Notes under the pieces: generated by a model | What the model was told of the DNA's origin: nothing | Seen by the model: only the letters and a program-made list of their open reading frames with translations | The model's database searches: none | Translations under genes and position numbers: made by a program | Assembly (NCBI GenBank): GCA_045633625.1 | Contig: JAZQYP010000025.1 | Span: 19,313-83,312, forward strand | Direction of reading: 5' to 3' | Length of the DNA stretch: 64,000 bases | Source of the DNA: Eubacteriales bacterium | GTDB lineage: Bacteria > Bacillota > Clostridia > Oscillospirales > CAG-272 | In this document: piece by piece, positions 4,726 to 56,949 of the stretch | Numbering within the stretch: position 1 is the stretch's first letter | Layout of the letters: each line of letters begins with the position of its first letter

Positions 4726-5817
4726 ATGTCAGAATACCAATTAGAAATAAAGCAAATTGTGGACTATCCGCGCTGCCGAATTTATCGGCAGTTCGTTCAG
4801 TCCCTAATAGCAGATAGAAATATCCGTACAAACGGTGGCTCGGGTCTTTTCTTTTACACCGTGTTGTCGAGCTATGCTAATTTCCGCACATCGTATAAAC
4901 GGATCGGCGGCATAAACTACACAGTCTACCCCGGTGAGTGGCTCTGTGAACTAAAAGAGCTGACCGAGTGGTTTCACTTTCGCTTTGGGAGACAAGCCAT
5001 TTCAGTATTGAACGACTTACAGGGGCGCCATCTTATTACTTACGAGCTTATTGGAAACGGTAGGCTTATTAAATATAAAATTGTAGGATGGCATAAACAC
5101 AACCGCGTACTTGAATATAATGCTCCCTGCCAAAAGGATACGGGATTTTTCTTTCTCCCTATCTGTATAGCAAATGAAATTATAGGAACAAGGCGGCCGT
5201 CAGAAATGGATATTCTTTTGGACCTATGGTTGAACACCGTATATAACGATGAGCAAGTACAGGGATCAGACGTGGCTCCAGTTGTATATATAAGAAACGG
5301 AAGCGGAAATCCTCTCATAAGCTATGCGGAGCTTGCTCAGAGATACAACGTCTCGAAGGCAACCATAGGTCGTTATCTTAAAAAGTTTGAGGAGCTTGAA
5401 TTGATTTCAATCAGTTCATTCCCCGGCACTCACGGAACGGTGATTTCTTTACGTAATTACCTTTCCACGATGTTTCAAATATCCGACGTTATGCTTGATA
5501 AGGAGGAGATTGCAATGGCGTTACACATAACTATCAATTTGCCCGAAAGCGTTGCAAACGACGCATCTACCGTTTCAGAATTACGCAAGGAAGTGATCAT
5601 GCAGAAAGTCGAGAAAATCCTTATGTCACAAGGGTTTTCGTGCTTTGACTGCTCGAATTTCCGATATAAGTTATTAGAGTTATCCGATTGCCAAGGAACG
5701 GTATTAACGGAGAGATCTGATACACATAAGAGACGGTTGAGATACAGTCTGAAATTACTCTGCGGTGAGCAGAAAGAAATAGCGCAATTTGAACTTATAC
5801 TTACACCTGCCAATTGA
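4726..5817 (+). CDS. Hypothetical protein with an HTH segment (possible replication/regulatory protein)
   Basis: RBS GGAGGaaaagca-ATG. HTH-like ISYAELAQRYNVSKATIGRYLKKFEEL. No family recognised. Confidence 0.4.
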   Translation: MSEYQLEIKQIVDYPRCRIYRQFVQSLIADRNIRTNGGSGLFFYTVLSSYANFRTSYKRIGGINYTVYPGEWLCELKELTEWFHFRFGRQAISVLNDLQGRHLITYELIGNGRLIKYKIVGWHKHNRVLEYNAPCQKDTGFFFLPICIANEIIGTRRPSEMDILLDLWLNTVYNDEQVQGSDVAPVVYIRNGSGNPLISYAELAQRYNVSKATIGRYLKKFEELELISISSFPGTHGTVISLRNYLSTMFQISDVMLDKEEIAMALHITINLPESVANDASTVSELRKEVIMQKVEKILMSQGFSCFDCSNFRYKLLELSDCQGTVLTERSDTHKRRLRYSLKLLCGEQKEIAQFELILTPAN

Positions 5818-9502: not shown

Positions 9503-9742
9503 GTGAAACGGTTATTCAAAAAAGCAATCGATGTTTTGGATAACAAACGTGGAGACGGCTATATTGACGTAGCGGTAAAAATGATAATTGCCGTTGTCAT
9601 CGGAGCATTACTGCTTGGCGGTCTCTATTATTTGTTCAACAACATCGTCCTGCCGGGACTTGCAGAGCGAATTCAAGATATGTTCGGCTCTCCCGGTGGA
9701 AGCGGAAATGATGGCGGTGGCGGCGGCATCATTCTTCTTTAA
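9503..9742 (+). CDS. Tad/Flp-like pilin paralog 1 (Gly-rich C-terminus)
   Basis: AGGAGGtaaaat-GTG. Basic leader, then RGDG-YIDVAVKMIIAVVIGALLLGGLYYLF, a class III signal-like architecture. Confidence 0.5.
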   Translation: MKRLFKKAIDVLDNKRGDGYIDVAVKMIIAVVIGALLLGGLYYLFNNIVLPGLAERIQDMFGSPGGSGNDGGGGGIILL

Positions 9743-9788
9743 CAAGCACGCTAAATAAAAATCAAAGAAAGATACGAGGTAAACTTTT

Positions 9789-10031
9789 ATGAAAAAGCTT
9801 TTCAAAAACATTCAGAACAAGGCAAACGCTCTCGCAATCAAGGCAAAGTGTGCTCTTGATAACGCAAAGGCAGAGGGTTACATCGACACAGGTGTAAAAA
9901 TCATCATCGGCGTCGTAGTCGGCGCAGTCATTCTCGCAGGTCTCTACGCCCTCTTCGATGGCGTAATTCTTCCCACTCTCGAAGGCAGAATCGACGGAAT
10001 GTTCGATTACTCCGGCGCTCCCACAACCTAA
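9789..10031 (+). CDS. Tad/Flp-like pilin paralog 2
   Basis: 80 aa; AKAEG-YIDTGVKIIIGVVVGAVILAGLYALF. A near-duplicate of the next gene. Confidence 0.55.
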   Translation: MKKLFKNIQNKANALAIKAKCALDNAKAEGYIDTGVKIIIGVVVGAVILAGLYALFDGVILPTLEGRIDGMFDYSGAPTT

Positions 10032-10083
10032 TAGCAGGTTAACAAGCAAAACAAAATAAATTATTTGAAAGGAATAACATAAT

Positions 10084-10314
10084 ATGAAAAAATTCTTTAA
10101 GAAGCTTCAGGACAAGGCAAATTCTCTCGCAATCAAGGCAAAGTGTGCTGTGGAAAGCACCAAGGGCGAAGGTTACATCGATACAGGTGTAAAAATTATC
10201 ATCGGCGTCGTAGTCGGTGCGGTTATCCTCGCAGGACTGTACGCCCTCTTTGATAACGTCATTCTCCCTCGTCTCAACACCGAGATCACGAATATGTTCA
10301 ACTACACTGCTTAA
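10084..10314 (+). CDS. Tad/Flp-like pilin paralog 3
   Basis: 76 aa; TKGEG-YIDTGVKIIIGVVVGAVILAGLYALF. Confidence 0.55.
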   Translation: MKKFFKKLQDKANSLAIKAKCAVESTKGEGYIDTGVKIIIGVVVGAVILAGLYALFDNVILPRLNTEITNMFNYTA

Positions 10315-25704: not shown

Positions 25705-25844
25705 TGCTTTTTCAAAAAAATTCTTCTACATCGTGAAAATACGCAAAAACCATTGTCGCACAAGGCTTCTTGCCGCATTAAAATATCGCAAAAATACCGA
25801 GTCTCTGTGTTGCTCGGTAAACTTTCCACGAAAGAAGGTGTCGT

Positions 25845-26978
25845 ATGCCTTACCCCGTCAAACTCCCCGACAAACGGACAATGGCTTATGAACTGCTTCA
25901 GCTCATAGCCATTTTAGGTGAATTACCAAGCCATCAACTCTCCCGTCTGCCGGGTGGAGACAGATACAAAGAACGGCTGCTTACCGATCTGAAAAAGCAG
26001 AAGCTTATCCGTACATACTACCGTGATGAGATGCGCGGACACAGGCTGACGGCAAAAGCAAAAGCACTTTTGCTTGACGGTAATCCTTCTCGTTTTTCCT
26101 CTTGTCTTGCCAAGTATGCAGATACCAATCACGTACAAAGCGAACCCCTCCGTCGTGAACGGTTATGGCGAATAGCCGAGGCAACCGTCACGATGAAAAA
26201 TGCAGATATATCCGTTTTCCCCGACGAACACCCGAGAGCCTTTTTGAGAGCTTGGGACGGTGCTGACGAAATCGAAACAGCTTCCTTTTATCCTTCAAGA
26301 GAGGTCACTGCTTACGGCAATGAATTTGTGAGGGCTAAAGGCGCACGATTTATCGGCGTCCTGCTAACGGATACGCGAGCTTACATTGCGTATAACTTGG
26401 GAGATTCCCTTATGAAATGGGCATACAAAAGCGAGATGAGAACCAAAGCACAGGTCAGCGACATTCTATGCCGCGAACGCTATCCCGATCAGTATACTCC
26501 CGATGACGTGCGCGGAATGATATTCGCAAACAAAATGGAGCTTGCCTATGAAATACTATCCAATTCCGGTAACAAGCAGTATTTTATTTTGGATGGAAGC
26601 TATGAGAATTTTTACTATGTTACCAACGACCAAAAAGGCGAGCTTCTTTTGAGATTTCTATGTGATGCAGAGCTGCGAGAGGAACTCGACGAGCTTGTGA
26701 TAGGACATCTTGATCCATCAAATAATCGACTGCTGTTTGAACACGATGCTCTTTTAGAGGACGGTACGCCGGTCCTTCTTGCGTATGATTGCGACCTCAG
26801 ACGAATCAGCAAGTTTACGTCTATGCTCAACCTACAAGAAAGACACGGAGTGCTTATGTGCTTTGATTATCAAGCGGATACGCTTGGCAGATTTTGCGGA
26901 GAGCGTGTTACGTTAAAAACCATTGACTACGAAAAAGTGAAAAGGAGGTTTTTCGAAAATAAACAAGAAACTGATTAA
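25845..26978 (+). CDS. Hypothetical protein with an N-terminal winged-helix-like segment (possibly replication-relaxation-like)
   Basis: AYELLQLIAILGELPSHQLSRL...LKKQKLIRTY looks like a wHTH. The gene sits directly upstream of, and overlaps, the coupling-protein gene. Confidence 0.3.
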   Translation: MPYPVKLPDKRTMAYELLQLIAILGELPSHQLSRLPGGDRYKERLLTDLKKQKLIRTYYRDEMRGHRLTAKAKALLLDGNPSRFSSCLAKYADTNHVQSEPLRRERLWRIAEATVTMKNADISVFPDEHPRAFLRAWDGADEIETASFYPSREVTAYGNEFVRAKGARFIGVLLTDTRAYIAYNLGDSLMKWAYKSEMRTKAQVSDILCRERYPDQYTPDDVRGMIFANKMELAYEILSNSGNKQYFILDGSYENFYYVTNDQKGELLLRFLCDAELREELDELVIGHLDPSNNRLLFEHDALLEDGTPVLLAYDCDLRRISKFTSMLNLQERHGVLMCFDYQADTLGRFCGERVTLKTIDYEKVKRRFFENKQETD

Positions 26979-27000
26979 AATACTGTGCGTAGGACCGCCA

Positions 27001-28800
27001 TTGTTATTTGCCTTGCTCTATGGCGGTGGATATATAGCGCAGTTTATCCGTAACTATACCGAATGGCAAAATTCGGGAGCTGTTATGGGAGACGGCACCT
27101 CTCCGCAAATGCCAACATTCGCTATCGGCGAGTGCTTTCGAGCTATGTTTACAATGCCGTATGGAATCATCGGCATTGCGATATGTGTGCTCGTGCTTGG
27201 ACTTCTCGTATTTATGGTTATGCGTATGGGCTTTGGCGACAAGGGAGAGTACGACAGAAACCGAAATCTCATCTACTCCAACAAAGGTACTTACGGTACA
27301 GCGGGCTTTATGCCCGAAAAAGAAATAGCCGAGGTGCTTGATGTTGTGGGCGACGTGCGAAAGCACACGGGCACGATTCTCGGAAAGTTAAACGGCAAAG
27401 CAATTTGTGTTCCGAAGGAAACAAGATTAAATGCCAATATTGCCGTTTACGGAGCCAGCGGCTCAATGAAAACAAGAGCGTTTTGCATCAACCGCATTTT
27501 GCAAAGTGCGGCACGCGGAGAGTCGCTTATCATAACAGATCCAAAGTCCGAGCTATACGAGAAAACAAGCGAGTATCTACGGTCGAAGGGATACGTGGTT
27601 AAGGTCTTCAATTTGGTATCACCCGAAAGTTCCGATTCTTGGAACTGCTTGTGCGAGATTGAGGGAGACGAACTTATGGCGCAGCTATTTTGCGATGTCA
27701 TTATCAAGAACACGGGCTCGGAACGGGGCGATCATTTTTGGGATAACGCAGAAATGAATCTGCTCAAGGCGTTAGTTCTCTACGTGGAACAAGGTTATCC
27801 TCCCGATAGGAAGAACATTGGCGAGGTATATAGGCTTCTGACGTTGAATTCAGAAAATGAACTTAACACCTTATTTGACAAGCTGCCCATTTCGCATCCC
27901 GCAAAAGCGCCTTATGTAATTTTCAAGCAAGCGTCCGAAACGGTGCGGACAGGCGTTATCATTGGGCTTGGCTCCCGCCTTCAGGTATTTCAGAACAGTA
28001 AGGTCAAGAGCATAACAGCCTATGACGAGATCGACCTTGAGCTGCCGGGAAAGCAACCGTGTGCATACTACTGCATCACAAGCGATCAGGACAGCACCTT
28101 TGACTTCTTATCCTCGCTCTTTTTATCCTTTGTATTCATCAAGCTTGTAAGGTACGCAGATAAAAACTGCGAAGGCGGTAAGCTTCCCGTTCCCGTTCAC
28201 GTGCTTGGAGAAGAGTTGACCGCCTGCGGTGTCATTCCCGACCTCAGCCGAAAAATATCGGTAATCAGGTCCCGTAATATTTCAATGTCCTGCGTATTCC
28301 AGAATCTTGCAGGACTTCAAAACCGCTATCCGTACAACCAATGGCAAGAAATACTCGGCAATTCAGATATTCAGCTTTTCCTCGGATGTGTGGATGAGCT
28401 GACCGCAAAATATATCAGCGACCGAGCCGGCGAGGTTTCTATCGCTGTTACGAGCAAGGCAAAGCAGCTTGGTACTTGGCGCGTCAGCGACTATACACCG
28501 GAATATAGGGAGACAAGCGGTGTCGGAAAGCGAAAGCTGCTCACGATGGACGAAGTTTTGCGCCTTCCCATCAACCAAGCATTGATCATCATTCGAGGAA
28601 GAAAGGTACTCCAAGTAGATAAATACGATTACACCTGTCACCCCGAAGCAGACAAATTGGTTATGTGTAAGGCATCTGAACACATACCCGAATGGGTCAA
28701 GCGTCCTAAAACCACAGAAAAAGAAACACAAGAACAACCGCCAAAAAAGGAAAAGAAAAAAGTAGTCCCGACCGGGAAGGACTCGGTAATGTCAGATTAG
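27001..28800 (+). CDS. virD4: VirD4/TraG-type type IV coupling protein (probable real start upstream, ATA at 26959)
   Basis: Walker A-like VYGASGSMKTRA, then IITDPKSELYE. Two N-terminal TM helices are present only if translation starts upstream of the TTG. Confidence 0.85.
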   Translation: MLFALLYGGGYIAQFIRNYTEWQNSGAVMGDGTSPQMPTFAIGECFRAMFTMPYGIIGIAICVLVLGLLVFMVMRMGFGDKGEYDRNRNLIYSNKGTYGTAGFMPEKEIAEVLDVVGDVRKHTGTILGKLNGKAICVPKETRLNANIAVYGASGSMKTRAFCINRILQSAARGESLIITDPKSELYEKTSEYLRSKGYVVKVFNLVSPESSDSWNCLCEIEGDELMAQLFCDVIIKNTGSERGDHFWDNAEMNLLKALVLYVEQGYPPDRKNIGEVYRLLTLNSENELNTLFDKLPISHPAKAPYVIFKQASETVRTGVIIGLGSRLQVFQNSKVKSITAYDEIDLELPGKQPCAYYCITSDQDSTFDFLSSLFLSFVFIKLVRYADKNCEGGKLPVPVHVLGEELTACGVIPDLSRKISVIRSRNISMSCVFQNLAGLQNRYPYNQWQEILGNSDIQLFLGCVDELTAKYISDRAGEVSIAVTSKAKQLGTWRVSDYTPEYRETSGVGKRKLLTMDEVLRLPINQALIIIRGRKVLQVDKYDYTCHPEADKLVMCKASEHIPEWVKRPKTTEKETQEQPPKKEKKKVVPTGKDSVMSD

Positions 28801-28831: not shown

Positions 28832-30040
28832 TCAGGTGTTCAACAAAAAATCTATAATGTTGTAATGCTTGATGCCGTTGCGTGAAAAATCAAATTTGTC
28901 GGCAGAAATGACGTACTTGGGATAATTGTCTTGAATATACGAAAACGGACGAAATTCTCTTTCGATAGTAGATTCATCGGACAGTAGGTAAGCAACCTGG
29001 ATATAGATTTTTTCTTTGTCTCGGTTGTAACAAATAAAATCGATTTCGTATTCGCCAACCTTACCTACGTTGATTTCATACCCACGGGAGAGCATTTCAA
29101 GATAAACCACGTTCTCAAATAGCTTGCTGAAATCAATCTGTTCGCTGCTTTTGATGTGATTACGGATTCCCAAATCGACACTGTAATATTTTTCGTTAGT
29201 CGAAAGCAATGCCTTTCCCTTGGTGTCGTAACGCTTGACGGAGCAAATTACAAGTGCTTTCAGGATATAAGCAATATAAGAAACAACGGTATTAACAGTT
29301 GTTTGGATTCCCTCGTTCTTCAATGCCTTACAAATTGAATTGGCGGAAAATGGATTGCCGATATTATCAAGCAAAAATACGATAAGACGCTTTAACAGAT
29401 CGATGTCACTGATTTTGTTTCTCTCCACAATATCGTTGACAACGATAGTATTAAAGATATCTTCCAGATAAGTTTGCTTTGATTGCTTTTCGGGAAGTGA
29501 GCAGCACTGAGGAAGTCCGCCGAATTCAAGATATTCGTCAAACAATTCTTCATCTGTAAGAGTTCTATTCAATTCTTTTGCGTATGCCTTGATCTCGGCT
29601 AAAGTAAAAGGATAGATGTCGAAGTGTACGTGTCGTCCGGCGATATGTGTTGCGAGTTCACCCGATAGCAGCTTGGAGTTGGAGCCGGTGATATAAATAT
29701 CGCAATTGATATCAACAAGGAACGAAGCTAAAACCTTTTCCCATTCTGAAACATCCTGTATTTCATCAAAGAACAGATAGATTTTTCGACCCTCAGTGCT
29801 TGAGGCTTTATCCATTACATATTGATACAAGACCTCACCGTTGAGATATTTTTTGTATGCATAGGATTCGAAATTGATATACAGGATTTGATTTTCAGCG
29901 ACACCGTTTTCAAGCAAATACTCTTTGAGTTGTGTCAACAATACGGTTTTACCGCTACGTCTGACACCTACCAAAGCCTTAATCAAAGGCTTATCAATGA
30001 ACGGAACGATTTTGTCCAAATATTTTGTTCTCTTTATCAT
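28832..30040 (-). CDS. AAA-type ATPase with a DUF4143-like C-terminal domain
   Basis: KALVGVRRSGKTVLLTQL P-loop, LFFDEIQ Walker B. The overall layout is that of the AAA_14/DUF4143 family. Confidence 0.7.
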   Translation of the reverse strand: MIKRTKYLDKIVPFIDKPLIKALVGVRRSGKTVLLTQLKEYLLENGVAENQILYINFESYAYKKYLNGEVLYQYVMDKASSTEGRKIYLFFDEIQDVSEWEKVLASFLVDINCDIYITGSNSKLLSGELATHIAGRHVHFDIYPFTLAEIKAYAKELNRTLTDEELFDEYLEFGGLPQCCSLPEKQSKQTYLEDIFNTIVVNDIVERNKISDIDLLKRLIVFLLDNIGNPFSANSICKALKNEGIQTTVNTVVSYIAYILKALVICSVKRYDTKGKALLSTNEKYYSVDLGIRNHIKSSEQIDFSKLFENVVYLEMLSRGYEINVGKVGEYEIDFICYNRDKEKIYIQVAYLLSDESTIEREFRPFSYIQDNYPKYVISADKFDFSRNGIKHYNIIDFLLNT

Positions 30041-30179: not shown

Positions 30180-31349
30180 ATGGCAAAAAAGAAAAATGAA
30201 GAAACTATGATTTCAAGCGAAGCCGTTGAGAACAACACGGAAATGGAGGAGATTATTGATGTATCCGAAGAAAAGACCGTATCCGCTGATGAAAGCACGG
30301 CTGCACTTGAAGAACCCATTGCACCCAAAAAGAAGCGTGCAACAAAAAAGAAGATCGAGGCAGAGGCAGCGGAGGTACCCGAAGTATCTGAAGCCGAAAT
30401 GGAAGAAGAACCGACACCCAAAAGAAAGCGTGTGCCAAAGGAGGCTCCTATCTTAACGATTGACGTGGACGGTGATGTGGAAACGGAGGAACAGCTTGCT
30501 GAAATAGCTTGGCATGAGATTCGCAATGCCTACCGTACACGAAGGATCCTGACAGGTATGCTCGGCGGTATTGAGCAGACCGACAACGGAAAGACAGTAG
30601 CTATTGTTGAATACAAGGGCTACCGTATCATTATTCCTCTTAGAGAAATGGTGGTCAACTTTCCGAACAACGTATCGGGAGACGACTACAAGGATCTTGT
30701 TGTGCGACACCACAAGCTTGTAAGCAATATGCTCGGCGCTGAAATCGATTTTCTTGTAAAAGGAATCGACTCCAAGACACGAAGCGTTGTGGCAAGCCGC
30801 CGCGAAGCTATGCTCAAGAAGCGTCAAACCTTTTATATGGAAACAGACAATAGCGGTACATATAAAATTTATGACGGCCGCATTGTCCAGGCGCGCGTTA
30901 TTGCGGTTGCCGAAAAAGCAATTCGTATTGAAGCGTTCGGCGTGGAATGCTCCATTATGGCGAGAGATCTTTCTTGGGATTGGATAGGCGACGCTCACGA
31001 CCGATATTCTGTTGGTGACCAGATCGTTGTCCGTATTCTTTCGGTTAAGAGGGATAATGTTGAGGAGCTCTCTATCAAAGCGGACGTAAAGAGCGTCAGC
31101 GACAATAACAAGCGGACCAACCTCAGCCAATGCCGTATCCAAAGCAAATATGCCGGAAAGGTCACCGACGTTCACAAGGGCGTTGTCTATGTCCGTCTGA
31201 CAAACGGAGTGAATGCCGTTGCTCATTCGTGTTACGACAGACGAATGCCCGGCAAGAAGGATGACGTCAGCTTTGCCGTAACGCACATCGACGAGGAAAA
31301 AGGCGTTGCGGTCGGCATTATTACCCGTATTATCAAGCAGAATCTTTAA
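30180..31349 (+). CDS. S1 RNA-binding-domain protein with an acidic/lysine-rich N-terminal tail
   Basis: AAAGGAGGaatatttt-ATG. S1-like segments (GRIVQARVIAVAEKAIRIEAFGVECSIMARDLSW, VGDQIVVRILSV, AGKVTDVHKGVVYVRL). Confidence 0.6.
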   Translation: MAKKKNEETMISSEAVENNTEMEEIIDVSEEKTVSADESTAALEEPIAPKKKRATKKKIEAEAAEVPEVSEAEMEEEPTPKRKRVPKEAPILTIDVDGDVETEEQLAEIAWHEIRNAYRTRRILTGMLGGIEQTDNGKTVAIVEYKGYRIIIPLREMVVNFPNNVSGDDYKDLVVRHHKLVSNMLGAEIDFLVKGIDSKTRSVVASRREAMLKKRQTFYMETDNSGTYKIYDGRIVQARVIAVAEKAIRIEAFGVECSIMARDLSWDWIGDAHDRYSVGDQIVVRILSVKRDNVEELSIKADVKSVSDNNKRTNLSQCRIQSKYAGKVTDVHKGVVYVRLTNGVNAVAHSCYDRRMPGKKDDVSFAVTHIDEEKGVAVGIITRIIKQNL

Positions 31350-33600: not shown

Positions 33601-33745
33601 TATCAAATTGCTTAAACAAACAACCTCAAATCACTAAAATAAAATACCTCAAATTACTAAAACGATGATTGTGAATGGTTTTATTGTGGTATTAAAAGTT
33701 TATAGTTAAATCACAGATAAAATACTATATATTGTGAAAATAGAC

Positions 33746-33774
33746 TTGACAAAATCAATATATCGTGGTATAAT
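33746..33774 (+). promoter_or_regulatory. Consensus sigma-A promoter
   Basis: TTGACA - 17 nt - TATAAT. Confidence 0.7.
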
Positions 33775-33863
33775 ACTACTGTAATTGATATTTTGTGCTT
33801 GTCCGATAGGACTTTTCGTGAGAAAACAGCTCACATTGCACACGTTGTTAAGTTTGTATTCAA

Positions 33864-33924
33864 AGTGCCGAGTATTACGGTTTTTGCCCTTATGGGATAA
33901 AACTGTTTTGTCGGCACTTTTTTA
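33864..33924 (+). terminator. Long imperfect hairpin plus U-tract in the leader upstream of ssb
   Basis: agtgccga (33864-33871) pairs with tcggcact (33911-33918). Inner pairings are acggtttt/aaaactgt and ccc/ggg. A T-run follows at 33919-33924. Confidence 0.6.
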
Positions 33925-33960
33925 TATAGATATTTTAGCCGGCAGGCAGAAAGGAGTAGT

Positions 33961-37289: not shown

Positions 37290-37329
37290 AAGATAATGCT
37301 TTGTAAGACCTACATAGCATAAGAAATCA

Positions 37330-37370
37330 GGGATACCGTTAGCCGCTTGGCAAACGGTATCCCTTTTTTC
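37330..37370 (+). terminator. Strong intrinsic terminator directly upstream of the sigma-factor RBS
   Basis: gggataccgtt / aacggtatccc 11-bp stem followed by TTTTTT. Confidence 0.75.
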
Positions 37371-37388
37371 AGTTTGGAGGAAAGGAAT

Positions 37389-45405: not shown

Positions 45406-45420
45406 TTACACCAATCAAAA

Positions 45421-45465
45421 ATCCCCTTGGCAGTTAATTTCGAACTGTTCAAGGGGATGTTTTTA
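45421..45465. terminator. Bidirectional terminator between HU and XRE genes
   Basis: atccccttg / caaggggat outer stem with an inner cagtt/aactg stem. GTTTTTA follows on the + strand and an A-run precedes it. Confidence 0.65.
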
Positions 45466-45774
45466 TTACTTTTGTAAGCCTTTTGCCAAAGAAATCAGGT
45501 TGTCCAACTGTTCACTTGATAAGTGCTTTGCTATTTCAAACAATTCGTTAGCCTTGGACGGATTAGCGGAGTCCAGATCAAAGAATTCACTTGGAGTTAT
45601 TCCCAAATACTCGCAAATAAAGAAGATTCCCTCCAAAGAAGGCTTTGATTTGCCTGTTTCGATGTTATTTATATAACCCGGATTCTGACCGATTGACAAA
45701 CTCATATCACGAGCAGAAACGCCCTTCTTTTCGCGTAACCGAGCAAGCCTTAAAGCAACGTCTTTCTCATCCAT
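45466..45774 (-). CDS. XRE-family HTH transcriptional regulator
   Basis: GAGGTGatgat-ATG. LRLARLREKKGVSARDMSLSIGQNPGYINNIETGKSKPSLEGIFFICEYLGITPSEFF. Confidence 0.75.
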   Translation of the reverse strand: MDEKDVALRLARLREKKGVSARDMSLSIGQNPGYINNIETGKSKPSLEGIFFICEYLGITPSEFFDLDSANPSKANELFEIAKHLSSEQLDNLISLAKGLQK

Positions 45775-45852
45775 ATCATCACCTCGCAACCTTTTTATAA
45801 TATTATACCCCACACACCAGCGAAAAATATTTGTTGTTGGGCTTTAATTCTG

Positions 45853-46945: not shown

Positions 46946-47785
46946 ATGAAAAGAATTATAACTTCAAAAAGAATCAAAGACTTTGAAATCTATTTAAGAA
47001 ACGAAGAAAGGAGTAAAGCAACGATAGAAAAATATATGCGAGATGTGAGATATTTCACGTCATATGTTGGTGATGCAGAAATTGAAAAACAGAAAGTTCT
47101 TGATTATAAAAGTAAACTTATCGATGAATATGCTGTGGCAAGTGCCAATTCTATGATAGCGGCATTAAATTGTTTTCTTCGCTTTTGCGGTTGGCATAAT
47201 TTATGTGTTAAGCAATTCAAAATACAAAGAACTGTTTACTGTCCCGAAGAAAAGGAACTTACCCGTGAAGAGTATATTCGTTTGCTTGATGCGGCAAGCA
47301 AAAAGAACAACAAGAGATTAAATCTTATCATTCAGACAATTTGCGGAACTGGCATTCGTGTAAGTGAACTTGAATATATCACTGTTGAGGCGGTGCAAAA
47401 GAGCGAGGCTACAGTTAATTGTAAAGGAAAGAATAGAAAAATATTTATTGTCCCCGAATTAAGAAAAAAACTGCTCCGTTATGCAAAGGAGCAGGGGATA
47501 TGTGTTGGAACTCTATTTATAACGAGAGGTGGGAAACCAGTCAGTAGACATCATATTTGGAAAGAAATGAAGGCTCTTTGTAAGCAGGCAAATGTATCGC
47601 CAAGTAAAGTGTTTCCACATAATCTTCGCCATCTGTTCGCACGCACTTTTTATGGTATAGAAAAAGACATTGCCAAACTCGCAGACATACTGGGACACGC
47701 AAGCATTAACACGACACGTATTTATATAGTAACCACTGGTGCGGAGCATAAGCGCAAAATGGAGCACATGAGGCTCATCATATAA
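46946..47785 (+). CDS. Tyrosine site-specific recombinase (short, XerC/D-like, no arm-binding domain)
   Basis: Catalytic pattern GTGIRVSEL (R), HNLRHLFAR (HxxR), LGHASINTTRIY (H..Y); 279 aa. Confidence 0.85.
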   Translation: MKRIITSKRIKDFEIYLRNEERSKATIEKYMRDVRYFTSYVGDAEIEKQKVLDYKSKLIDEYAVASANSMIAALNCFLRFCGWHNLCVKQFKIQRTVYCPEEKELTREEYIRLLDAASKKNNKRLNLIIQTICGTGIRVSELEYITVEAVQKSEATVNCKGKNRKIFIVPELRKKLLRYAKEQGICVGTLFITRGGKPVSRHHIWKEMKALCKQANVSPSKVFPHNLRHLFARTFYGIEKDIAKLADILGHASINTTRIYIVTTGAEHKRKMEHMRLII

Positions 47786-50896: not shown

Positions 50897-51445
50897 ATGA
50901 ATGAACAAAATCTAAAGAAGAAGTTAACCGTGATGATCGTAACCGTCGTACTCCTTTCATTGGGACTTGCGATTACCAGCTTTGCCTTGGCAAGCTCTAT
51001 CGTCAGCATACGGAACAACCGTTTTACCATGAGTATGGGAGTTGATCTTACGATTAACGATGGAAAACCCATTGTTGACGTAACCGATATGGTTTATGAG
51101 CCCGGTGGAACCTATACAAGCGAATTTCCCATTGCTAACCTCGGCACGTTTGATGTGTGGTATCGTGTTTATCTTACGGGTGTGGACGGTGAATTAAAGG
51201 ACGATATTACCGTCACCATCAAGGAAAAGGACGGAACTGTTCTCGGCAAGGGTACGATGAACCAATTGACCGCCGATAAGGCAATGACAGGCAGTCTTGC
51301 CGCAGGAGAAGAAAAAACGCTTATCATTGAATTCTATTTCTCCCCCGATGCCGATAACAGTGCGCAGGGTCAAACCGTGTCTTTTAATATCACGGCAGAC
51401 GCAACGCAGAAGAAAAACAATCCCGACAAGGATTTCGGTAATTGA
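50897..51445 (+). CDS. Small TasA/camelysin-family protein
   Basis: Signal/anchor LTVMIVTVVLLSLGLAITSFALASS, then a single beta-rich domain ending ADATQ...DKDFG, like the junction motif of the large paralogs. Confidence 0.55.
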   Translation: MNEQNLKKKLTVMIVTVVLLSLGLAITSFALASSIVSIRNNRFTMSMGVDLTINDGKPIVDVTDMVYEPGGTYTSEFPIANLGTFDVWYRVYLTGVDGELKDDITVTIKEKDGTVLGKGTMNQLTADKAMTGSLAAGEEKTLIIEFYFSPDADNSAQGQTVSFNITADATQKKNNPDKDFGN

Positions 51446-51456
51446 GGGAGGACAGT

Positions 51457-52182
51457 ATGAAAAAAGCATTACAAATAACAAAGACCGTATTGGTTTGGCT
51501 TGTAGTCGCCATTGCGGTCGGTATGATGATATTTACGCTGATCTCGGTCAGTACATTCGATAAGACCGACAGAAACATATTCGGCTTCAAGTTCTTTATC
51601 GTCACGAGTGATTCGATGGCAGCCACTGACTTTGACGCAGGCGATATTGCGATATCGAAGAATGTTGACCCCAAAACGTTGAAAGAGGGCGACATAATTA
51701 CCTTCTTGTCGCAAGACCACGATAACTTCGGCGAGGTGGTTACGCATAAGATCAGAAGATTGACGACCGATGCAAACGGACGTCCCGGATTCGTTACCTA
51801 CGGTACTACGACTGATACCGATGACAGAACTGTTGTAACACATGAATACGTTGTCGGACAGTACGTTGGCAGAATACCGAAGGTGGGTTCGTTCTTTATG
51901 TTTCTTAAAACGACGCCCGGTTATATTCTTTGTATTCTTCTTCCTTTTCTGCTTCTTATTCTGTCTCAGGGACTTAATTGTATCCGTTTGTTCCGTCAAT
52001 ACAAAAAGGAACAAATGGACGAAATGAAGGCAGAAAGAGAAAAGATCGAGCAAGAACGCGCTGAAAGTCAGCGTATGATGGCAGAGCTGCTGGAGCTCAA
52101 AGCCCAGCTTGCCAAACAAGACGGTGGGGCAACGTCTCCCGCCGATCCTGCGTCCGAGGATATCACAACGGACGAAGCATAA
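51457..52182 (+). CDS. sipW: SipW-type (ER/archaeal-type) signal peptidase I with a C-terminal TM and coiled-coil tail
   Basis: GAGGGAGGacagt-ATG. Catalytic-Ser box FIVTSDSMAAT, GDIITF, VVTHKI His box. Confidence 0.8.
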   Translation: MKKALQITKTVLVWLVVAIAVGMMIFTLISVSTFDKTDRNIFGFKFFIVTSDSMAATDFDAGDIAISKNVDPKTLKEGDIITFLSQDHDNFGEVVTHKIRRLTTDANGRPGFVTYGTTTDTDDRTVVTHEYVVGQYVGRIPKVGSFFMFLKTTPGYILCILLPFLLLILSQGLNCIRLFRQYKKEQMDEMKAEREKIEQERAESQRMMAELLELKAQLAKQDGGATSPADPASEDITTDEA

Positions 52183-52254
52183 TAGGTGTTTAGCGGAAAA
52201 GCCGCTTTACATAGTTAGTCTGACAAAAATATACCAAGAAGGAGGTTAAACAAA

Positions 52255-54366
52255 ATGACTAACACAAGATCCACAAAGCGCGCACTTCTCGCAAGCTTCA
52301 TGGCACTGCTCCTTTGCTTTTCCATGCTGCTTAGCACGACGTTCGCGTGGTTTACCGACTCTGTAACGAGCGGAAACAACATTATCCAATCCGGTAATCT
52401 TGACATAGAGCTTGAATACTGGAACGGAACCGCTTGGGCGGATGTAAAAGATGCTTCTGACATCCTTACCAACACCCTTTGGGAGCCCGGCGTAACCGAG
52501 GTTGCATACCTCAGAGTTGCCAACGCAGGTTCTCTCGCACTCAAGTATCAGCTTGGGATCAACATTCTCAACGAGCTTGAGGGCAAAAACCAGAAAGAAG
52601 AGACTTTCAAGCTCTCCGATTACATTATGTTCGGCGTAATTGAGGGCGTAAATGGTGAGACCACACCTTACCCCAAGGATGACGCAGGCAGAGCCGCAGC
52701 TATCACTGCTGTAACCGATGCTAAGATCATTTCTGCTGGCTACACCAAGGCATCTACCATGAATCCCGATGACGAGCTTTATCTCGCACTGGTAGTTTAT
52801 ATGCCTACAGATACTAATGATGTTGCTAACCACAACGGCACCGACATTCCTCAGATCGATCTTGGTATCAACGTATTTGCTACTCAGGTTGAAGCAGATC
52901 TTGAGACTGATAGCTTCGGTCCCGACTACGATAAGGACGCTTCGGCTTTTGTTTCTTCTGCTGATGAGCTGAGAGCGGCCATTGCAAATGTTAAGGATGG
53001 TGGCACGGTTTATGTAAATGATGGAACTTATAACATCAACAGCCAGCTCACCATTCCTGGAAAATCTGTTAACATCGTTGGTGTTGGTGAAAATGCAGTC
53101 ATTCATATGACCGACACAAGAGTTAACTACAACAAGATTTTCTACATTTACGGAAGTGCTGACGGTGAGGATGTAACTGTTAATATTAGCAATGTTACTT
53201 TGACCGCAGACATCGCTACCAAGTCTGACATTTGGATCAGAACCGATGGACCGAATGGTGAGAAGGTTAACGGCAATGTTACCGTAAATCTTGATAACGT
53301 TACTTGCGCTTCTATTATTTGCGACAACAACTACGTTGACGGTGATACTGTTAATCTTAAGATTGCGAACAGTAACGTTAAGAAGGTCGCTTTGGATGCA
53401 TCTCCGTTCAATGGTAATGGTCTCAATACCTACACAAACTTGACCTATAATGCTACAAGAATTGATAGCATAACCATTAGCTCTTTGGTTGAAGATCTTA
53501 CTCACATCACGATAAATGGTGTTAACCCCACTGCGACCGGTGAGCAGCAGACTCTGACATATGTTGATACTGCTGAGGAACTGCAAAGTGCTTTGGACAA
53601 TGCGGTTGACGGCGACGTCATCGTTCTCGGCGCTGACATTACGGGTGATGTAATGGCTACTCAGAAGCCTGATGTGAAGATTACTGTTGACGGTAACGGT
53701 CATGAGTTCAACGGAGTGTTCACTGTTAACGGTAAGAGCGCAGCTTATGCCACCGCTGCAATTACAATTCAAAATGTGAATTTCAATGCTGAAGGCATTT
53801 CCAAAGATGCGAGCATCAGATTTGGTGGAGACAACTCGATGCTTTACGTAGCGAACGTAACCGTTAAAAACTGTACTTTCACAGGCAATCTTGCAGATGA
53901 AAAGGTTGGCGTTAAGTCCTATACGGGCGGCGATAAAAATATTACCATTACTGGCTGTACGGCAACCGGAATGCACTCCTTGGCTCAGCTTTATGTTACC
54001 GAGGGCGTGACCATCACTGATTGTGAGATAGACAACAGTAAGAGCGGAATCAGTGTGCGTTCTTCTACAAATGTACTTATTTCAGATTGCAATATCAATA
54101 CAACAGTTTATGGTATCCGTGCTGACGGTGGTGCTTGCACACAGACCATCAAGAACAATACTATTACTGCAAAGCAGCCCATTGTTGTTCGCAAACTCAC
54201 TTCTGCTGGATACGTGCTTAACCTTGAAGGCAACACCTTGACAACTACATCCACAGACGGCTATCAGGTTATCCTGACAACCGGTGATGATGAAGCGGCA
54301 TACGTTGCTCCCGATGCCGGTAACTACACAGTTAACGGTCAGTCTGAGTTGAACTTCTTCAAATAA
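52255..54366 (+). CDS. SipW-dependent secreted protein 1: TasA-like N-domain + right-handed beta-helix (PbH1-type) C-domain
   Basis: Signal KRALLASFMALLLCFSMLLSTTFAWFTDSVTSGNNII. PbH1-like repeats (ITITGCTATG..., VTITDCEIDNSKSGISV, VLISDCNINTTVYGIRA). Confidence 0.7.
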   Translation: MTNTRSTKRALLASFMALLLCFSMLLSTTFAWFTDSVTSGNNIIQSGNLDIELEYWNGTAWADVKDASDILTNTLWEPGVTEVAYLRVANAGSLALKYQLGINILNELEGKNQKEETFKLSDYIMFGVIEGVNGETTPYPKDDAGRAAAITAVTDAKIISAGYTKASTMNPDDELYLALVVYMPTDTNDVANHNGTDIPQIDLGINVFATQVEADLETDSFGPDYDKDASAFVSSADELRAAIANVKDGGTVYVNDGTYNINSQLTIPGKSVNIVGVGENAVIHMTDTRVNYNKIFYIYGSADGEDVTVNISNVTLTADIATKSDIWIRTDGPNGEKVNGNVTVNLDNVTCASIICDNNYVDGDTVNLKIANSNVKKVALDASPFNGNGLNTYTNLTYNATRIDSITISSLVEDLTHITINGVNPTATGEQQTLTYVDTAEELQSALDNAVDGDVIVLGADITGDVMATQKPDVKITVDGNGHEFNGVFTVNGKSAAYATAAITIQNVNFNAEGISKDASIRFGGDNSMLYVANVTVKNCTFTGNLADEKVGVKSYTGGDKNITITGCTATGMHSLAQLYVTEGVTITDCEIDNSKSGISVRSSTNVLISDCNINTTVYGIRADGGACTQTIKNNTITAKQPIVVRKLTSAGYVLNLEGNTLTTTSTDGYQVILTTGDDEAAYVAPDAGNYTVNGQSELNFFK

Positions 54367-54510
54367 GAAATCCGTAATAGCTGTTCTTCCGAATTTCTCG
54401 GTGATTGAATAGTAAAACGCTCATAGGCTGAGGTGATGGTTACACAGTTACCACGAAGCCGAAAGCACAACAAACGACTGCTCTCGTAGCAGATGTCACA
54501 AACAAAGTCA

Positions 54511-54577
54511 CCCAACTCCTTCGGGAGTTGGGCGGCAATTAAAGAGCATAAATCCGTTTGTGTTTTTTAATTGCTGA
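54511..54577 (+). terminator. GC hairpin plus U-tract terminator module (copy 1 of a 55-nt repeat)
   Basis: cccaactcc-ttcg-ggagttggg, then agcata..tgtgtt followed by TTTTTT. The stretch 54523-54577 is nearly identical to 62877-62931. Confidence 0.55.
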
Positions 54578-54816
54578 GAGATATAAATTCAAGGCAAGAA
54601 ATTCCGAGCTGAAAGGAGAAATTGAATTATAAAACAAGCTCAAAAAGCAAAATGCACAACATTTGGGATGTGTTTTTGCAAGATTGTGCAATAACCAACT
54701 CTCACAAAGACAAGGTTAAAGACGACAAATAATCGTTTTCGATTTGCGTTTTGCCGATATGGTCGAATAACGATTCCGAAACACATATTGGCAAAATCAA
54801 ACAGGAGGTCATTGGA

Positions 54817-56910: not shown

Positions 56911-56919
56911 TTAAAAATC

Positions 56920-56949
56920 CTTCCTAACTCCTTTCGGGGAGTTAGGAAG
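56920..56949 (+). other. GC hairpin of the same family (no U-tract)
   Basis: cttcctaactcc-tttcgg-ggagttaggaag. Confidence 0.5.

What the first reader, a model, noticed from the sequence alone, without database searches (positions are those of the whole stretch)
25705..26978. No recognisable relaxase; an unknown wHTH protein and a repeat-bearing gap occupy the usual relaxase/oriT position
**Seen:** None of the ORFs in 4.7-47.8 kb shows the His-rich (HxDxxxPHxH / HUH) or Rep_trans-like motifs that I would expect for a relaxase. Directly upstream of the coupling protein, and overlapping it, is a 377-aa protein with an N-terminal winged-helix-like segment. It is preceded by the only sizeable gap (140 bp) in the T4SS block. 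That gap contains two features:
- the repeated motifs aaaatacgcaaaaacc and aaaatatcgcaaaaatacc
- a 7-bp inverted repeat, taccgag-N11-ctcggta (25795-25819)

**Inference:** The 25845 protein could be a divergent or novel relaxase, or a replication-relaxation-type accessory protein, with the gap as an oriT candidate. Otherwise the relaxase lies outside the window or the element is mobilisation-defective.
Basis: inference. Interest (0 to 1): 0.55.

Follow-up and report, generated by a model that had tools for sequence, protein, structure and literature searches.

The report
Hidden relaxase-like protein beside coupling ATPase
A conjugative element from a gut Clostridia bacterium has no recognisable DNA-nicking "relaxase"; the unannotated 377-residue protein next to its coupling ATPase is probably a very divergent relative of the replication-relaxation (MOBC-type) relaxases. 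It sits behind a conserved DNA motif, which may help explain why many such transfer systems are scored as non-mobilisable.

Summary
The observation largely holds. No large ORF in the 64-kb window matches any relaxase family in Pfam or NCBIfam. ORF 25845-26978 encodes a 377-aa protein with an N-terminal winged helix. It follows a 140-bp gap holding a twice-repeated 14/15-mer and the inverted repeat TACCGAG-N11-CTCGGTA.

The protein belongs to a large unannotated family: 1377 clusters at 50% identity, with no Pfam, NCBIfam, PHROG or PDB sequence match. Its gene order is fixed: VirB4, DUF5697, DUF6100, a gap of about 140 bp, this protein, a VirD4-type coupling protein, then an S1/OB protein.

A confident AlphaFold model (pLDDT 87.5) matches only winged-helix regulators in the PDB. 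In the viral structure library its best full-length matches are Bacillus phage proteins of the Replic_Relax family (PF13814), the family of MOBC relaxases such as pAD1 TraX. Profile comparisons support only the winged helix, and no canonical PD-(D/E)xK residues can be found.

Across the family the gap keeps a single-copy bipartite motif, TACC-N17/18-GGTA (78 of 82 loci). The direct repeats are not conserved.

Best reading: a divergent MOBC-like DNA-processing protein that binds this motif (oriT and/or operator). Which protein nicks is open. The neighbouring DUF6100 carries a RusA-like nuclease motif and is a rival catalytic candidate.

The parts
21992..24487 (+). VirB4-type T4SS ATPase. It lies upstream of the conserved DNA-processing module.
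   Evidence: It matches Pfam P-loop_TraG at 1.1e-19 and AAA_10. It holds the same position in relatives.
24499..25029 (+). DUF5697 protein, 176 aa. It is the first gene of the conserved five-gene module.
   Evidence: It matches PF18954 at 5.4e-44 and weakly matches an MCM_C winged helix. It was found in 77 of the related loci.
25042..25704 (+). DUF6100 protein, 220 aa. It has an N-terminal helical region followed by a RusA-like nuclease motif, RRIRDYDNLELKQFLD...DD. It is a rival or partner candidate for the DNA-cutting activity.
   Evidence: It matches PF19595 at 2.9e-76. Residues D153, D155, N156, K160, D164, D173 and D174 are invariant, including in members only 31-34% identical. hhalign against RusA gives E 0.006-0.008 over 22 columns at 45% identity, with probability only 5-6%.
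25705..25844 (.). 140-bp intergenic gap. It is a candidate oriT and/or the promoter-operator of the downstream operon.
   Evidence: Gap size is conserved, mostly about 130-165 bp in related loci with a few outliers. Against L004 there are 15 substitutions in the first 88 nt and none in the last 52 nt.
25736..25749 (+). Direct repeat copy 1, AAAATACGCAAAAA.
   Evidence: The motif is unique to the gap within the window. It is mutated in the close relatives L004 and L005. No equivalent repeats occur across the family.
25780..25794 (+). Direct repeat copy 2, AAAATATCGCAAAAA. It abuts the inverted repeat.
   Evidence: L004 has three substitutions in this copy.
25795..25819 (.). Imperfect inverted repeat or bipartite motif, TACCGAG-N11-CTCGGTA. 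The family consensus is TACC(S)N(R)GT...(Y)(S)GGTA.
   Evidence: TACC-N16-20-GGTA is present in 78 of 82 related loci at the same place, with one consistent copy per locus. A divergent member carries the symmetric variant GACC...GGTC. Inner pairs are only slightly above shuffle expectation.
25845..26978 (+). The 377-aa protein in question. Residues about 10-85 form the winged helix. Residues about 88-215 form an alpha/beta domain, possibly restriction-endonuclease-like. Residues about 216-377 form a second alpha/beta domain carrying the CFDxQ motif.
   Evidence: - It has no Pfam, NCBIfam, PHROG or PDB sequence match.
- The family has 1377 representative clusters.
- The AF2 model has pLDDT 87.5.
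- Its best BFVD matches are Replic_Relax-type phage proteins: E 4e-4, TM 0.46 over 284 columns.
- R104, R106, G171, E197 and Q343 are invariant. K129, Y149, E153, Y183, W192, D301, D317, C339 and D341 are at least 90% conserved.
27001..28800 (+). VirD4-type coupling protein (T4CP), CD1115 family.
   Evidence: It matches NF045973 at 2.3e-121 and T4SS-DNA_transf at 1e-46. It lies immediately downstream of the target in all contexts examined.
30180..31349 (+). S1/OB-fold protein, 389 aa. It is the last gene of the conserved module and a probable single-strand nucleic-acid binder.
   Evidence: It matches Pfam S1 at 7.7e-12 and weakly resembles 30S protein S1. It follows the T4CP directly in relatives. 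About three S1-like segments can be seen by eye in the family sequences; that count is inference.

Best explanation
ORF 25845-26978 encodes the element's dedicated DNA-processing protein. It is a highly divergent relative of the replication-relaxation (Replic_Relax, MOBC-type) relaxases.

**Proposed mechanism**
1. The N-terminal winged helix binds the conserved, single-copy TACC-N17/18-GGTA motif just upstream of its own gene. Binding is probably as a dimer on double-stranded DNA, because the outer four bases of each half-site are fixed while the inner bases do not need to pair.
2. Binding marks the site where the relaxosome assembles (oriT). Because the motif lies 25-50 nt upstream of the start codon, binding very probably also autoregulates the operon for this protein, the T4CP and the S1 protein.
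3. One strand is cut at or near this site. The cut is made either by the protein's central restriction-endonuclease-like domain or with the adjacent RusA-like DUF6100 protein. A modified active site is possible; candidate residues are R104, R106, D127, K129, E153, R168, Y183 and E197.
4. The extra C-terminal domain and the co-expressed T4CP hand the DNA to the VirB4 channel, and the S1/OB protein coats the single strand.

**Shown:** family size, fixed gene order, the winged helix, the structural resemblance to Replic_Relax proteins, motif conservation, and the absence of any other known relaxase.

**Inferred:** DNA binding at the motif, nicking, the oriT role, and the partnership with the T4CP.
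For: 1. No known relaxase family matches any ORF scanned in the window.
   - PGAP annotates no relaxase across 41 kb of the homologous region in Vescimonas fastidiosa pMM35_02.
   - MOB-suite types both plasmids carrying the module as non-mobilizable.
   - No relaxase Pfam hit is on record within +/-10 kb in five further contexts.
2. The protein is large, strongly conserved and looks like an enzyme. There are 1377 clusters at E<=1e-3, with invariant Arg/Glu/Gln and near-invariant Tyr/Asp/Lys residues across members only 25-43% identical.
3. Gene order is fixed down to 26% identity: DUF5697, DUF6100, gap, this protein, T4CP, S1. Meanwhile the rest of the T4SS varies between Tad-like pili, sortase pili, and plasmid or chromosomal settings.
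4. Fold evidence comes from four observations.
   - The winged helix matches at probability 1.0.
   - The only matches covering more than the winged helix are Bacillus phage G gp146 (E 4.1e-4, probability 1.0, TMq 0.35, TMt 0.46, 284 columns), phage JL gp149 (E 1.4e-3) and a third protein (E 3.2e-3). Matches to the winged helix alone give TMq of only 0.15-0.17.
   - Homologues of gp146 are annotated replication-relaxation family, Replic_Relax, or 'replication initiation by nicking'.
   - The weaker tail of hits includes the PD-(D/E)xK enzymes Nt.BspD6I, EcoO109I and Cap4.
5. Replic_Relax is the MOBC relaxase family.
   - pTEF1 TraX matches PF13814 and is typed MOBC (PMC5357655).
   - MOBC relaxases combine an N-terminal winged helix with a PD-(D/E)xK domain (PMC12857230, PMC3424549).
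6. This architecture recurs next to T4CP-type ATPases: in pTEF1, in Bacillus phages and in streptococcal IMEs (PMC5357655).
7. The cis element is conserved and single-copy. It occurs in 78 of 82 loci at a fixed distance from the gene. There are no substitutions from the inverted repeat to the ATG against L004, compared with 17% divergence in the rest of the gap.
Against: - Sequence profiles do not link the family to PF13814. Pfam gives no hit for 43 + 35 members at E<=1. hhalign against TraX and phage Replic_Relax profiles aligns only the winged-helix wing, with probability no higher than 41%.
- The structural link rests on TM 0.46 and RMSD 7.4 A. That is below the usual same-fold threshold, and I could not inspect the residue alignment.
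- The 88-377 fragment modelled alone was less confident (pLDDT 76). It found nothing significant in the PDB.
- No PD...(D/E)xK triad is visible in the expected order. By eye, the hairpin strands where it should sit carry R168 and Y183-N184 instead. The nuclease site may therefore be degenerate.
- DUF6100 has a better-looking nuclease motif.
- Inner positions of the inverted repeat hardly covary. Eight of 64 unique gaps have a terminator-like hairpin 27-28 nt upstream of the motif. Both fit a promoter or operator as well as they fit oriT.
- No element of this family has been shown to transfer.
Confidence: 0.5

Rival explanations
1. The protein is a specificity or accessory factor, and DUF6100 is the nickase. 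It binds the TACC/GGTA motif and recruits the neighbouring DUF6100 protein, whose RusA-like Mg2+-dependent nuclease domain makes the cut. On this reading the protein's own endonuclease-like domain is catalytically dead. It serves as a scaffold or T4CP adaptor, much as TcpK or PcfF serve their relaxases.
For: - DUF6100 keeps an invariant D-x-D-N-x-x-x-K-x-x-x-D...DD motif, preceded by P-x-R-R-x-R. This matches the catalytic region of RusA: hhalign E 0.006-0.008, 45% identity over 22 columns.
- By eye, 'ITLP' and the C-terminal strands also line up with RusA. That is inference.
- DUF6100 is as tightly linked to the module as the target.
- The target lacks an identifiable PD-(D/E)xK triad.
Against: - The hhalign probability is only 5-6%, and neither Pfam nor a PDB profile search reports RusA.
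- RusA-type enzymes cut four-way junctions symmetrically and are not known to act as relaxases.
- The target's 290 non-winged-helix residues are too conserved for a simple adaptor.
Confidence: 0.25
2. The protein is only a transcriptional regulator, and the gap is only a promoter-operator. It would be an autoregulating winged-helix repressor or activator of the coupling-protein operon. DNA processing would then be done by a relaxase supplied in trans, or the T4SS would not transfer DNA at all (a 'MOBless' T4SS).
For: - The motif ends 25-35 nt before the start codon, which is promoter/operator geometry.
- The half-sites are fixed while the inner bases are free.
- Some relatives have a terminator just upstream, so a promoter must lie within this stretch.
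- Steczkiewicz et al. originally read Replic_Relax as a predicted transcription regulator (PMC3424549).
- MOBless T4SSs are common (PMC3158045).
Against: - No sigma-70-like promoter is detected on the + strand of the gap.
- A 290-residue, two-domain conserved extension with invariant charged residues is unusual for a repressor.
- The element carries the hallmarks of a DNA-transfer element: T4CP, SSB, a DUF932-like protein (the homologue is so named by PGAP), a methylase-SNF2 fusion, HU and a tyrosine recombinase.
- In known systems oriT and relaxase-operon promoters often overlap (my own knowledge: pMV158, pIP501, R388). Regulation therefore does not exclude an oriT role.
Confidence: 0.15
3. 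The protein is a nicking replication initiator of the excised element rather than a transfer relaxase. It would start rolling-circle replication of the circular form, as RefSeq annotates its phage structural neighbours ('replication initiation by nicking').
For: - The phage homologues of the best structural match carry this annotation.
- Some relaxases do both jobs, for example NicK of ICEBs1, as cited in PMC5357655.
Against: - The gene is welded to the T4CP and T4SS genes rather than to replication genes.
- A separate initiator-like HTH protein sits at the left end of the element (4726-5817; RepA_N in the relative L090).
- The phage annotation is itself a prediction.
- This reading is compatible with the best explanation rather than exclusive of it.
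Confidence: 0.1

Closest known systems
MOBC relaxases / Replic_Relax family (PF13814): TraX of pAD1/pTEF1, MobC of CloDF13
   Same: - Both have an N-terminal winged helix followed by an alpha/beta domain.
- Both genes sit beside a VirD4-type coupling protein (PMC5357655).
- Both have a nearby non-coding region with an inverted repeat. In this window there are also short direct repeats, which recalls pAD1 oriT2 (PMC12857230).
- The best full-length structural neighbours of the model are Replic_Relax-type proteins.
- Neither has an HUH motif.
   Different: - It is 377 aa rather than about 260 aa, with an additional conserved C-terminal domain of about 160 residues.
- It does not match PF13814, and profile-profile alignment fails beyond the winged helix.
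- The TraX catalytic residues (D152, E170, E172, K176, R180, Y181) have no identifiable counterparts.
- The direct repeats are not conserved in this family.
Bacillus phage Replic_Relax proteins (phage G gp146, SPO1 gp27.3, JL gp149)
   Same: - They are the best Foldseek matches over their whole length.
- They also lie next to large T4CP-like or MsbA-like ATPase genes.
   Different: - They keep a clear PD...E-x-D...TE motif, which the target lacks.
- They are 250-283 aa.
- They sit in phage genomes with no T4SS.
- They share about 10% sequence identity with the target.
TcpK/TcpM of pCW3 and other two-part Gram-positive relaxosomes
   Same: A winged-helix protein binds oriT next to an atypical relaxase in a clostridial conjugation locus (PMC6137059, PMC12857230). 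This is a precedent both for non-HUH relaxases and for winged-helix oriT binders.
   Different: - TcpK is a small protein consisting only of a winged helix.
- TcpM is related to tyrosine recombinases.
- No sequence or fold relation to either was detected here.
RusA Holliday-junction resolvase (for the neighbouring DUF6100)
   Same: The motif P-x-RR-x-RD-x-DN-L-..-K-...-D...DD corresponds to RusA D70, D72, K76, D80 and D90/91. All of these positions are invariant in DUF6100.
   Different: - DUF6100 has a helical N-terminal extension of about 85 residues.
- Statistical support is weak.
- There is a one-residue spacing difference before the Lys.
- RusA is not known to work in conjugation.

Membership tests
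MOBC / Replic_Relax (PF13814) | Significant match to the PF13814 profile (or the CONJscan MOBC profile) | tested here: not met
   No Pfam hit was found for the window protein or for 77 further family members at E<=1. As a control, pTEF1 TraX matches PF13814 at 2e-6. The CONJscan profile itself was not available.
MOBC / Replic_Relax (PF13814) | N-terminal winged helix-turn-helix DNA-binding domain | tested here: met
   Foldseek gives probability 0.99-1.0 to HlyU, SqrR, BigR, MarR-type and PadR-type proteins. hhalign aligns the wing of TraX with residues 38-76.
MOBC / Replic_Relax (PF13814) | PD-(D/E)xK (restriction-endonuclease-like) fold following the winged helix | tested here: inconclusive
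   The best BFVD matches are Replic_Relax-type phage proteins over 284-327 columns: E 4e-4 to 3e-3, TMt 0.43-0.46. PDB hits to PD-(D/E)xK enzymes reach only probability 0.3-0.5. Residue-level superposition could not be inspected.
MOBC / Replic_Relax (PF13814) | Conserved catalytic residues (TraX D152, E170/E172, K176, R180/Y181; phage PD...ExD...TE) | tested here: not met
   No alignment recovers these residues. The family's conserved polar residues are different: R104, R106, D127, K129, E153, R168, Y183, E197, D301, D317, D341 and Q343.
MOBC / Replic_Relax (PF13814) | Gene adjacent to a VirD4-type coupling protein within a transfer module | tested here: met
   The same adjacency holds for TraX and in IMEs (PMC5357655).
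MOBC / Replic_Relax (PF13814) | Site-specific nicking of a cognate oriT | not testable with these tools
   This needs biochemistry or genetics. Only a conserved candidate cis element was found.
HUH relaxases (MOBF, MOBP, MOBQ, MOBV, MOBB) | HUH/HxH metal-binding motif plus a catalytic Tyr or His; match to the Relaxase, MobA_MobL, Mob_Pre or TrwC profiles | tested here: not met
   No such Pfam or NCBIfam hit appears in the target or in any other scanned ORF of the window. No fold match to an HUH domain was found.
MOBT (Rep_trans, PF02486) and MOBH (TraI_2/HD) | Match to the Rep_trans or TraI_2/HD-domain profiles | tested here: not met
   There are no hits in any scanned ORF.
MOBM (TcpM, tyrosine-recombinase-derived relaxase) | Tyrosine-recombinase-like catalytic domain acting at oriT, encoded within the transfer locus | tested here: inconclusive
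   The only tyrosine recombinase is 46946-47785. It is XerC/D/XerA-like with an N-terminal SAM-like domain and lies at the far end of the element, as an integrase would. No comparison with TcpM was made. The target shows no such fold.
RusA family (for DUF6100, 25042-25704) | Catalytic D-x-D...K...D/DD constellation on the RusA alpha/beta fold | tested here: inconclusive
   The motif is present and invariant. hhalign gives E 0.006-0.008 but probability only 5-6%. Pfam and a PDB profile search report no RusA hit. No structure model was made.

The most novel reading that the evidence does not exclude
The five-gene block may be a previously unrecognised type of relaxosome. It would serve a very large group of T4SS elements in gut Clostridia that current tools call relaxase-less.

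Its parts would be:
- DUF5697;
- DUF6100, with its RusA-like motif;
- the TACC/GGTA site;
- the 377-aa protein, with a winged helix and an endonuclease-like domain;
- the T4CP;
- the S1/OB protein.

In this reading the 377-aa protein defines a new MOB family. It would derive from the Replic_Relax fold but carry a rebuilt active site, possibly Arg/Tyr-based. It would work either alone or as a two-subunit nickase with the RusA-like protein.
Probability: 0.35. Interest if true: 0.8.

Novelty: new variant of a known kind. Interest (0 to 1): 0.62.

Why it matters
Mobility typing tools such as MOB-suite, MOBscan and CONJscan depend on recognising a relaxase. Elements without one are scored as non-mobilisable, or as 'MOBless' T4SSs. 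That puzzle has stood since the first ICE census (PMC3158045).

This family is large: 1377 clusters at 50% identity. It is spread across Oscillospiraceae, Lachnospiraceae and related gut and rumen Clostridia, in chromosomes and on plasmids.

If the protein is the missing relaxase or its DNA-recognition subunit, three things follow:
- A profile built from it would reclassify many gut elements as self-transmissible.
- The conserved motif would give a testable oriT for genetic tools in hard-to-manipulate anaerobes.
- It would extend the endonuclease-type (MOBC) relaxase lineage to a form with a different active site.

Tried and rejected
- **Sequence searches for the target.** Pfam, NCBIfam, PHROGs and PDB sequence and profile searches found nothing beyond weak winged-helix matches.
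- **Remodelling without the winged helix.** I remodelled residues 88-377 alone to expose other fold matches. The model was poorer (pLDDT 76) and gave no significant PDB hit.
- **Profile-profile bridges.** Comparisons with TraX, with phage Replic_Relax proteins and with a combined alignment, including permissive hhalign settings, confidently aligned only the winged helix.
- **CloDF13 MobC as a second MOBC seed.** The PLSDB record did not give a clean MobC ORF, so I dropped it.
- **C. difficile CTn4 as an experimentally transferred relative.** I considered it because the T4CP belongs to the 'CD1115 family'. I rejected it because CTn4 has a different gene order, VirD4-VirB6-VirB4.
- **Strict hairpin.** Rejected, because the inner stem positions pair only marginally more often than shuffled controls. 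The gap as a whole folds no better than shuffles (z = -0.46).
- **Direct repeats as a family feature.** Rejected.
- **Promoter for the element's ECF sigma factor.** I found no support. There is no second conserved copy. The only look-alike, at 37334, is a 12-bp-stem terminator specific to this window.
- **oriT upstream of ssb.** The 360-bp gap there holds a perfect TTGACA-N17-TATAAT promoter plus a leader hairpin. I did not exclude it as an alternative oriT, and I did not compare it across relatives.
- **Other checks.** Rfam gave no hits. No tRNA genes, flanking direct repeats or GC shift define the element's ends.
Full report
**1. What is in the window**

Coordinates 25705-26978 cover a 140-bp non-coding gap and an ATG-initiated ORF of 377 codons, 25845-26978. 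The surrounding + strand is a long run of tightly packed genes. Pfam and NCBIfam identify the following:
- three small pilin-like ORFs, a prepilin peptidase, a CpaB/RcpC protein and a T2SSE-type ATPase, which together look like Tad-like pilus genes;
- a 1318-aa adhesin;
- a weak PrgI-like match (E 0.009);
- VirB4 (21992-24487);
- DUF5697 (24499-25029) and DUF6100 (25042-25704);
- the gap and the 377-aa ORF;
- a VirD4-type coupling protein of the CD1115 family (27001-28800; NF045973, 2.3e-121);
- further downstream, an S1-domain protein, SSB, a methylase-SNF2 fusion, HU, an ECF-type sigma factor and a XerC/D-like tyrosine recombinase.

I scanned nearly every ORF of 100 aa or more on the coding strand across the whole 64 kb, and none matches a relaxase family.

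**2. Checking the details**

The repeat AAAATA(N0-1)CGCAAAAA occurs twice, only in the gap. The inverted repeat TACCGAG-N11-CTCGGTA at 25795-25819 is unique in the window.

Two details need correcting:
- With canonical start codons the T4CP ORF begins at TTG 27001, 22 nt after the stop of the 377-aa ORF. The TTG start used by relatives reads TCG here and in the independent MAG L004.
- Larger non-coding stretches exist elsewhere in the element, at 33601-33960 and 45406-45852.

**3. The protein family**

The protein has no Pfam, NCBIfam, PHROG or PDB sequence match. It does have hundreds of homologues, all unnamed.

An exhaustive profile search of 1.84 billion representative proteins finds 1377 clusters at E<=1e-3 and 908 at E<=1e-10. 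Genome hits come from Oscillospiraceae, Lachnospiraceae and other Clostridia of human, chicken, ruminant and termite guts. They include cultured strains and complete chromosomes and two plasmids.

Across members only 25-43% identical, R104, R106, G171, E197 and Q343 are invariant. K129, Y149, E153, Y183, W192, G265, D301, D317, C339 and D341 are at least 90% conserved. That pattern suits an enzyme or a precise interaction surface better than a simple repressor.

**4. Context**

Wherever enough contig was available, the gene order was the same. This includes members at 26% identity and a RepA_N-bearing contig that looks like a plasmid. The order is VirB4, DUF5697, DUF6100, a gap usually of about 135-205 bp, this protein, a VirD4-type T4CP, then an S1 protein. 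The pilus and adhesin genes around this block differ between elements.

No relaxase Pfam family is on record within +/-10 kb in any of these contexts. PGAP annotates none in 41 kb of Vescimonas fastidiosa pMM35_02, and MOB-suite types both plasmids as non-mobilizable.

Two of the most divergent subfamilies, seen only on short contigs, are followed by unknown genes rather than a T4CP.

**5. Fold**

An AlphaFold2 model built with 43 homologues is confident (pLDDT 87.5, pTM 0.88). It shows:
- a winged helix at residues about 10-85;
- an alpha/beta domain at about 88-215;
- a second alpha/beta domain at about 216-377.

Against the PDB, only the winged helix matches (ArsR, MarR and PadR types, probability about 1.0). 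There is a low-probability tail that includes the PD-(D/E)xK enzymes Nt.BspD6I, Cap4 and EcoO109I.

Against the viral structure library, the top hits cover far more of the protein:

| Hit | E-value | Notes |
|---|---|---|
| Bacillus phage G gp146 | 4.1e-4 | probability 1.0, 284 columns, TMq 0.35, TMt 0.46 |
| Phage JL gp149 | 1.4e-3 | |
| A third protein (UPI00232A4C1C) | 3.2e-3 | |

Hits to the winged helix alone give TMq of only 0.15-0.17.

tblastn shows that gp146 belongs to a group of Bacillus phage proteins annotated 'replication-relaxation family', 'Replic_Relax superfamily' or 'replication initiation by nicking'. These proteins carry a clear PD...ExD...TE motif.

The MOBC relaxase TraX of pTEF1/pAD1 belongs to the same Pfam family (PF13814). 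MOB-suite types it as MOBC. PF13814 corresponds to the CONJscan MobC profile (PMC5357655) and to a PD-(D/E)xK fold fused to an HTH (PMC3424549, PMC12857230).

In pTEF1 and in several of these phages, the Replic_Relax gene lies beside a T4CP-like ATPase gene. The arrangement is the same in this window.

**6. Limits of that link**

- Profile-profile comparison of the family with TraX, with the phage group and with both combined aligns only the winged-helix wing with any confidence (probability no higher than 41%).
- TM 0.46 is suggestive rather than conclusive, and I could not see the residue correspondence.
- I cannot find the canonical acidic triad. By eye, the beta-hairpin where PD and ExK normally sit carries R168 and Y183-N184. 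This is inference, not a structural alignment.
- The protein therefore works like, and is probably derived from, a Replic_Relax/MOBC-type protein. It fails the sequence and active-site criteria for membership.
- It also has an extra conserved domain of about 160 residues, with the motifs G265, D301, D317 and CFDxQ.

**7. The gap**

I aligned 64 distinct upstream gaps from related loci. One element is conserved: TACC-N17/18-GGTA. It occurs in 78 of 82 loci, ends 25-35 nt before the start codon, and has one consistent copy per locus.
- A divergent member carries the symmetric variant GACC...GGTC, and another carries a slightly degenerate copy.
- On the 5' side the motif extends to TACC-S-N-R-G-T.
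- Positions 5-10 of the two arms pair only slightly more often than shuffled partners, for example 21/34 against 17.1 and 22/34 against 17.8.
- This therefore looks like two fixed half-sites about two helical turns apart rather than an obligatory hairpin.

Against the relative L004, whose protein is 96% identical, the gap has 15 substitutions in its first 88 nt and none in the last 52 nt, from the inverted repeat to the ATG. The regional average DNA divergence is 3.6%. They are hit by substitutions, and they have no counterpart across the family (median p 0.45).

No sigma-70 promoter or terminator is called on the + strand of the gap in this window. Eight of 64 unique gaps in relatives have a clear terminator-like hairpin 27-28 nt upstream of the motif. 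In those elements a promoter must overlap the motif.

Taken together, the motif is a protein-binding site. It may serve as an operator or promoter, as the relaxosome assembly site (oriT), or as both. That overlap is common for relaxase operons in known systems (my own knowledge).

**8. The neighbours matter**

DUF6100 contains 'P-x-RR-I-R-D-Y-D-N-L-E-x-K-Q-x-L-D ... DD'. D153, D155, N156, K160, D164, D173 and D174 are invariant even in members only 31-34% identical.

This lines up with the catalytic segment of E. coli RusA (D70, D72, K76, D80, D90/91). I verified the recalled RusA sequence against 1Q8R. hhalign gives E 0.006-0.008 over 22 columns at 45% identity, but probability only 5-6%. Pfam and a PDB profile search do not report RusA.

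This is a lead, not a finding. It does mean the module has a second candidate nuclease. The S1 protein appears to have about three OB/S1-like segments and could bind the transferred strand.

**9. Conclusion**

The most likely reading (about 0.5) is that the 377-aa protein is the element's DNA-processing protein. It would be a divergent MOBC-like relaxase, or the DNA-recognition subunit of one. It would bind the conserved motif in front of its own gene and work with the coupling protein encoded immediately downstream.

The alternatives are:

| Alternative | Probability |
|---|---|
| It only targets the site and DUF6100 makes the cut | about 0.25 |
| It is only a regulator | about 0.15 |
| It mainly initiates replication of the excised element | about 0.1; not exclusive of the main reading |

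I found no publication describing this family. The 2025 nomenclature review lists the MOBF, P, Q, V, B, C, H, T and M families only (PMC12857230).

I rate it a new variant of a known kind. Its interest is moderately high because of the family's size and because it bears on the 'MOBless T4SS' question (PMC3158045).

Noticed in passing
window 25042-25704 (DUF6100): The protein carries an invariant motif, RRxRDYDNLExKQxLD...DD. It resembles the catalytic segment of the Holliday-junction resolvase RusA (D70, D72, K76, D80, D90/91) and follows a helical N-terminal extension of about 85 residues. DUF6100 may be an uncharacterised nuclease family tied to T4SS modules.
   Followed up: partly
window 26950-27003; L004 11106-11159: The TTG start codon that relatives use for the coupling protein reads TCG in this window and in an independent MAG. 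The first canonical start is TTG 27001, which would remove about 16 N-terminal residues. An AGGAGG lies 10 nt upstream of an ATA codon at 26959.
   Followed up: partly
window 28832-30040 (- strand): An AAA_14/DUF4143 ATPase gene on the opposite strand lies between the T4CP gene and the S1-protein gene. In every relative examined these two genes are adjacent, so this looks like an insertion specific to this lineage.
   Followed up: no
window 9503-10314: Three tandem paralogous ORFs of about 76-80 aa, each with one hydrophobic helix (MKKLFK...EGYIDTGVKIIIGVVVGAVILAGLY...), sit just upstream of a prepilin peptidase, a CpaB/RcpC protein and a T2SSE ATPase. They are likely Tad/Flp-like pilins inside a Gram-positive T4SS element.
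   Followed up: partly
window 33601-33960: The 360-bp gap upstream of ssb holds a perfect TTGACA-N17-TATAAT promoter near 33747. It is followed by a leader with a 10-bp-stem hairpin (33862-33920) and a T-run. This could be a leading-region promoter or attenuator, or an alternative oriT. It was not compared across relatives.
   Followed up: partly
window 37329-37371: A perfect 12-bp-stem hairpin, AGGGATACCGTT-N12-AACGGTATCCCT, followed by TTTTTT lies just upstream of the ECF-type sigma factor gene, whose real start is probably the ATG at about 37390. It happens to contain TACCG...CGGTA but is not conserved in relatives. It is probably a terminator.
   Followed up: yes
L094-L099 (Bacillus phages G, SPO1, JL, Thrax5, pW2): Replic_Relax-family genes in large Bacillus phages lie next to very large T4CP-like or MsbA-like ATPase genes. 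In Thrax5 and pW2 they also lie next to a tyrosine recombinase. This looks like a mobilisation-style gene pair inside phage genomes.
   Followed up: no
It occupies the place that a RepA_N protein takes in relative L090, so it is probably the element's replication or maintenance initiator or a regulator.
   Followed up: partly
window 50897-62847: To the right of the element is a cluster of five large proteins with camelysin-like (Peptidase_M73) N-terminal segments, interrupted by one with a NosD-like repeat. Its function and its relation to the element are unknown.
   Followed up: no
L088, L089, L092 (short metagenome contigs): The most divergent subfamilies of the 377-aa protein (P0229/P0207 and P0262) are followed by unknown genes of 199-294 aa rather than a T4CP. 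The family may therefore also exist outside full T4SS modules.
   Followed up: no
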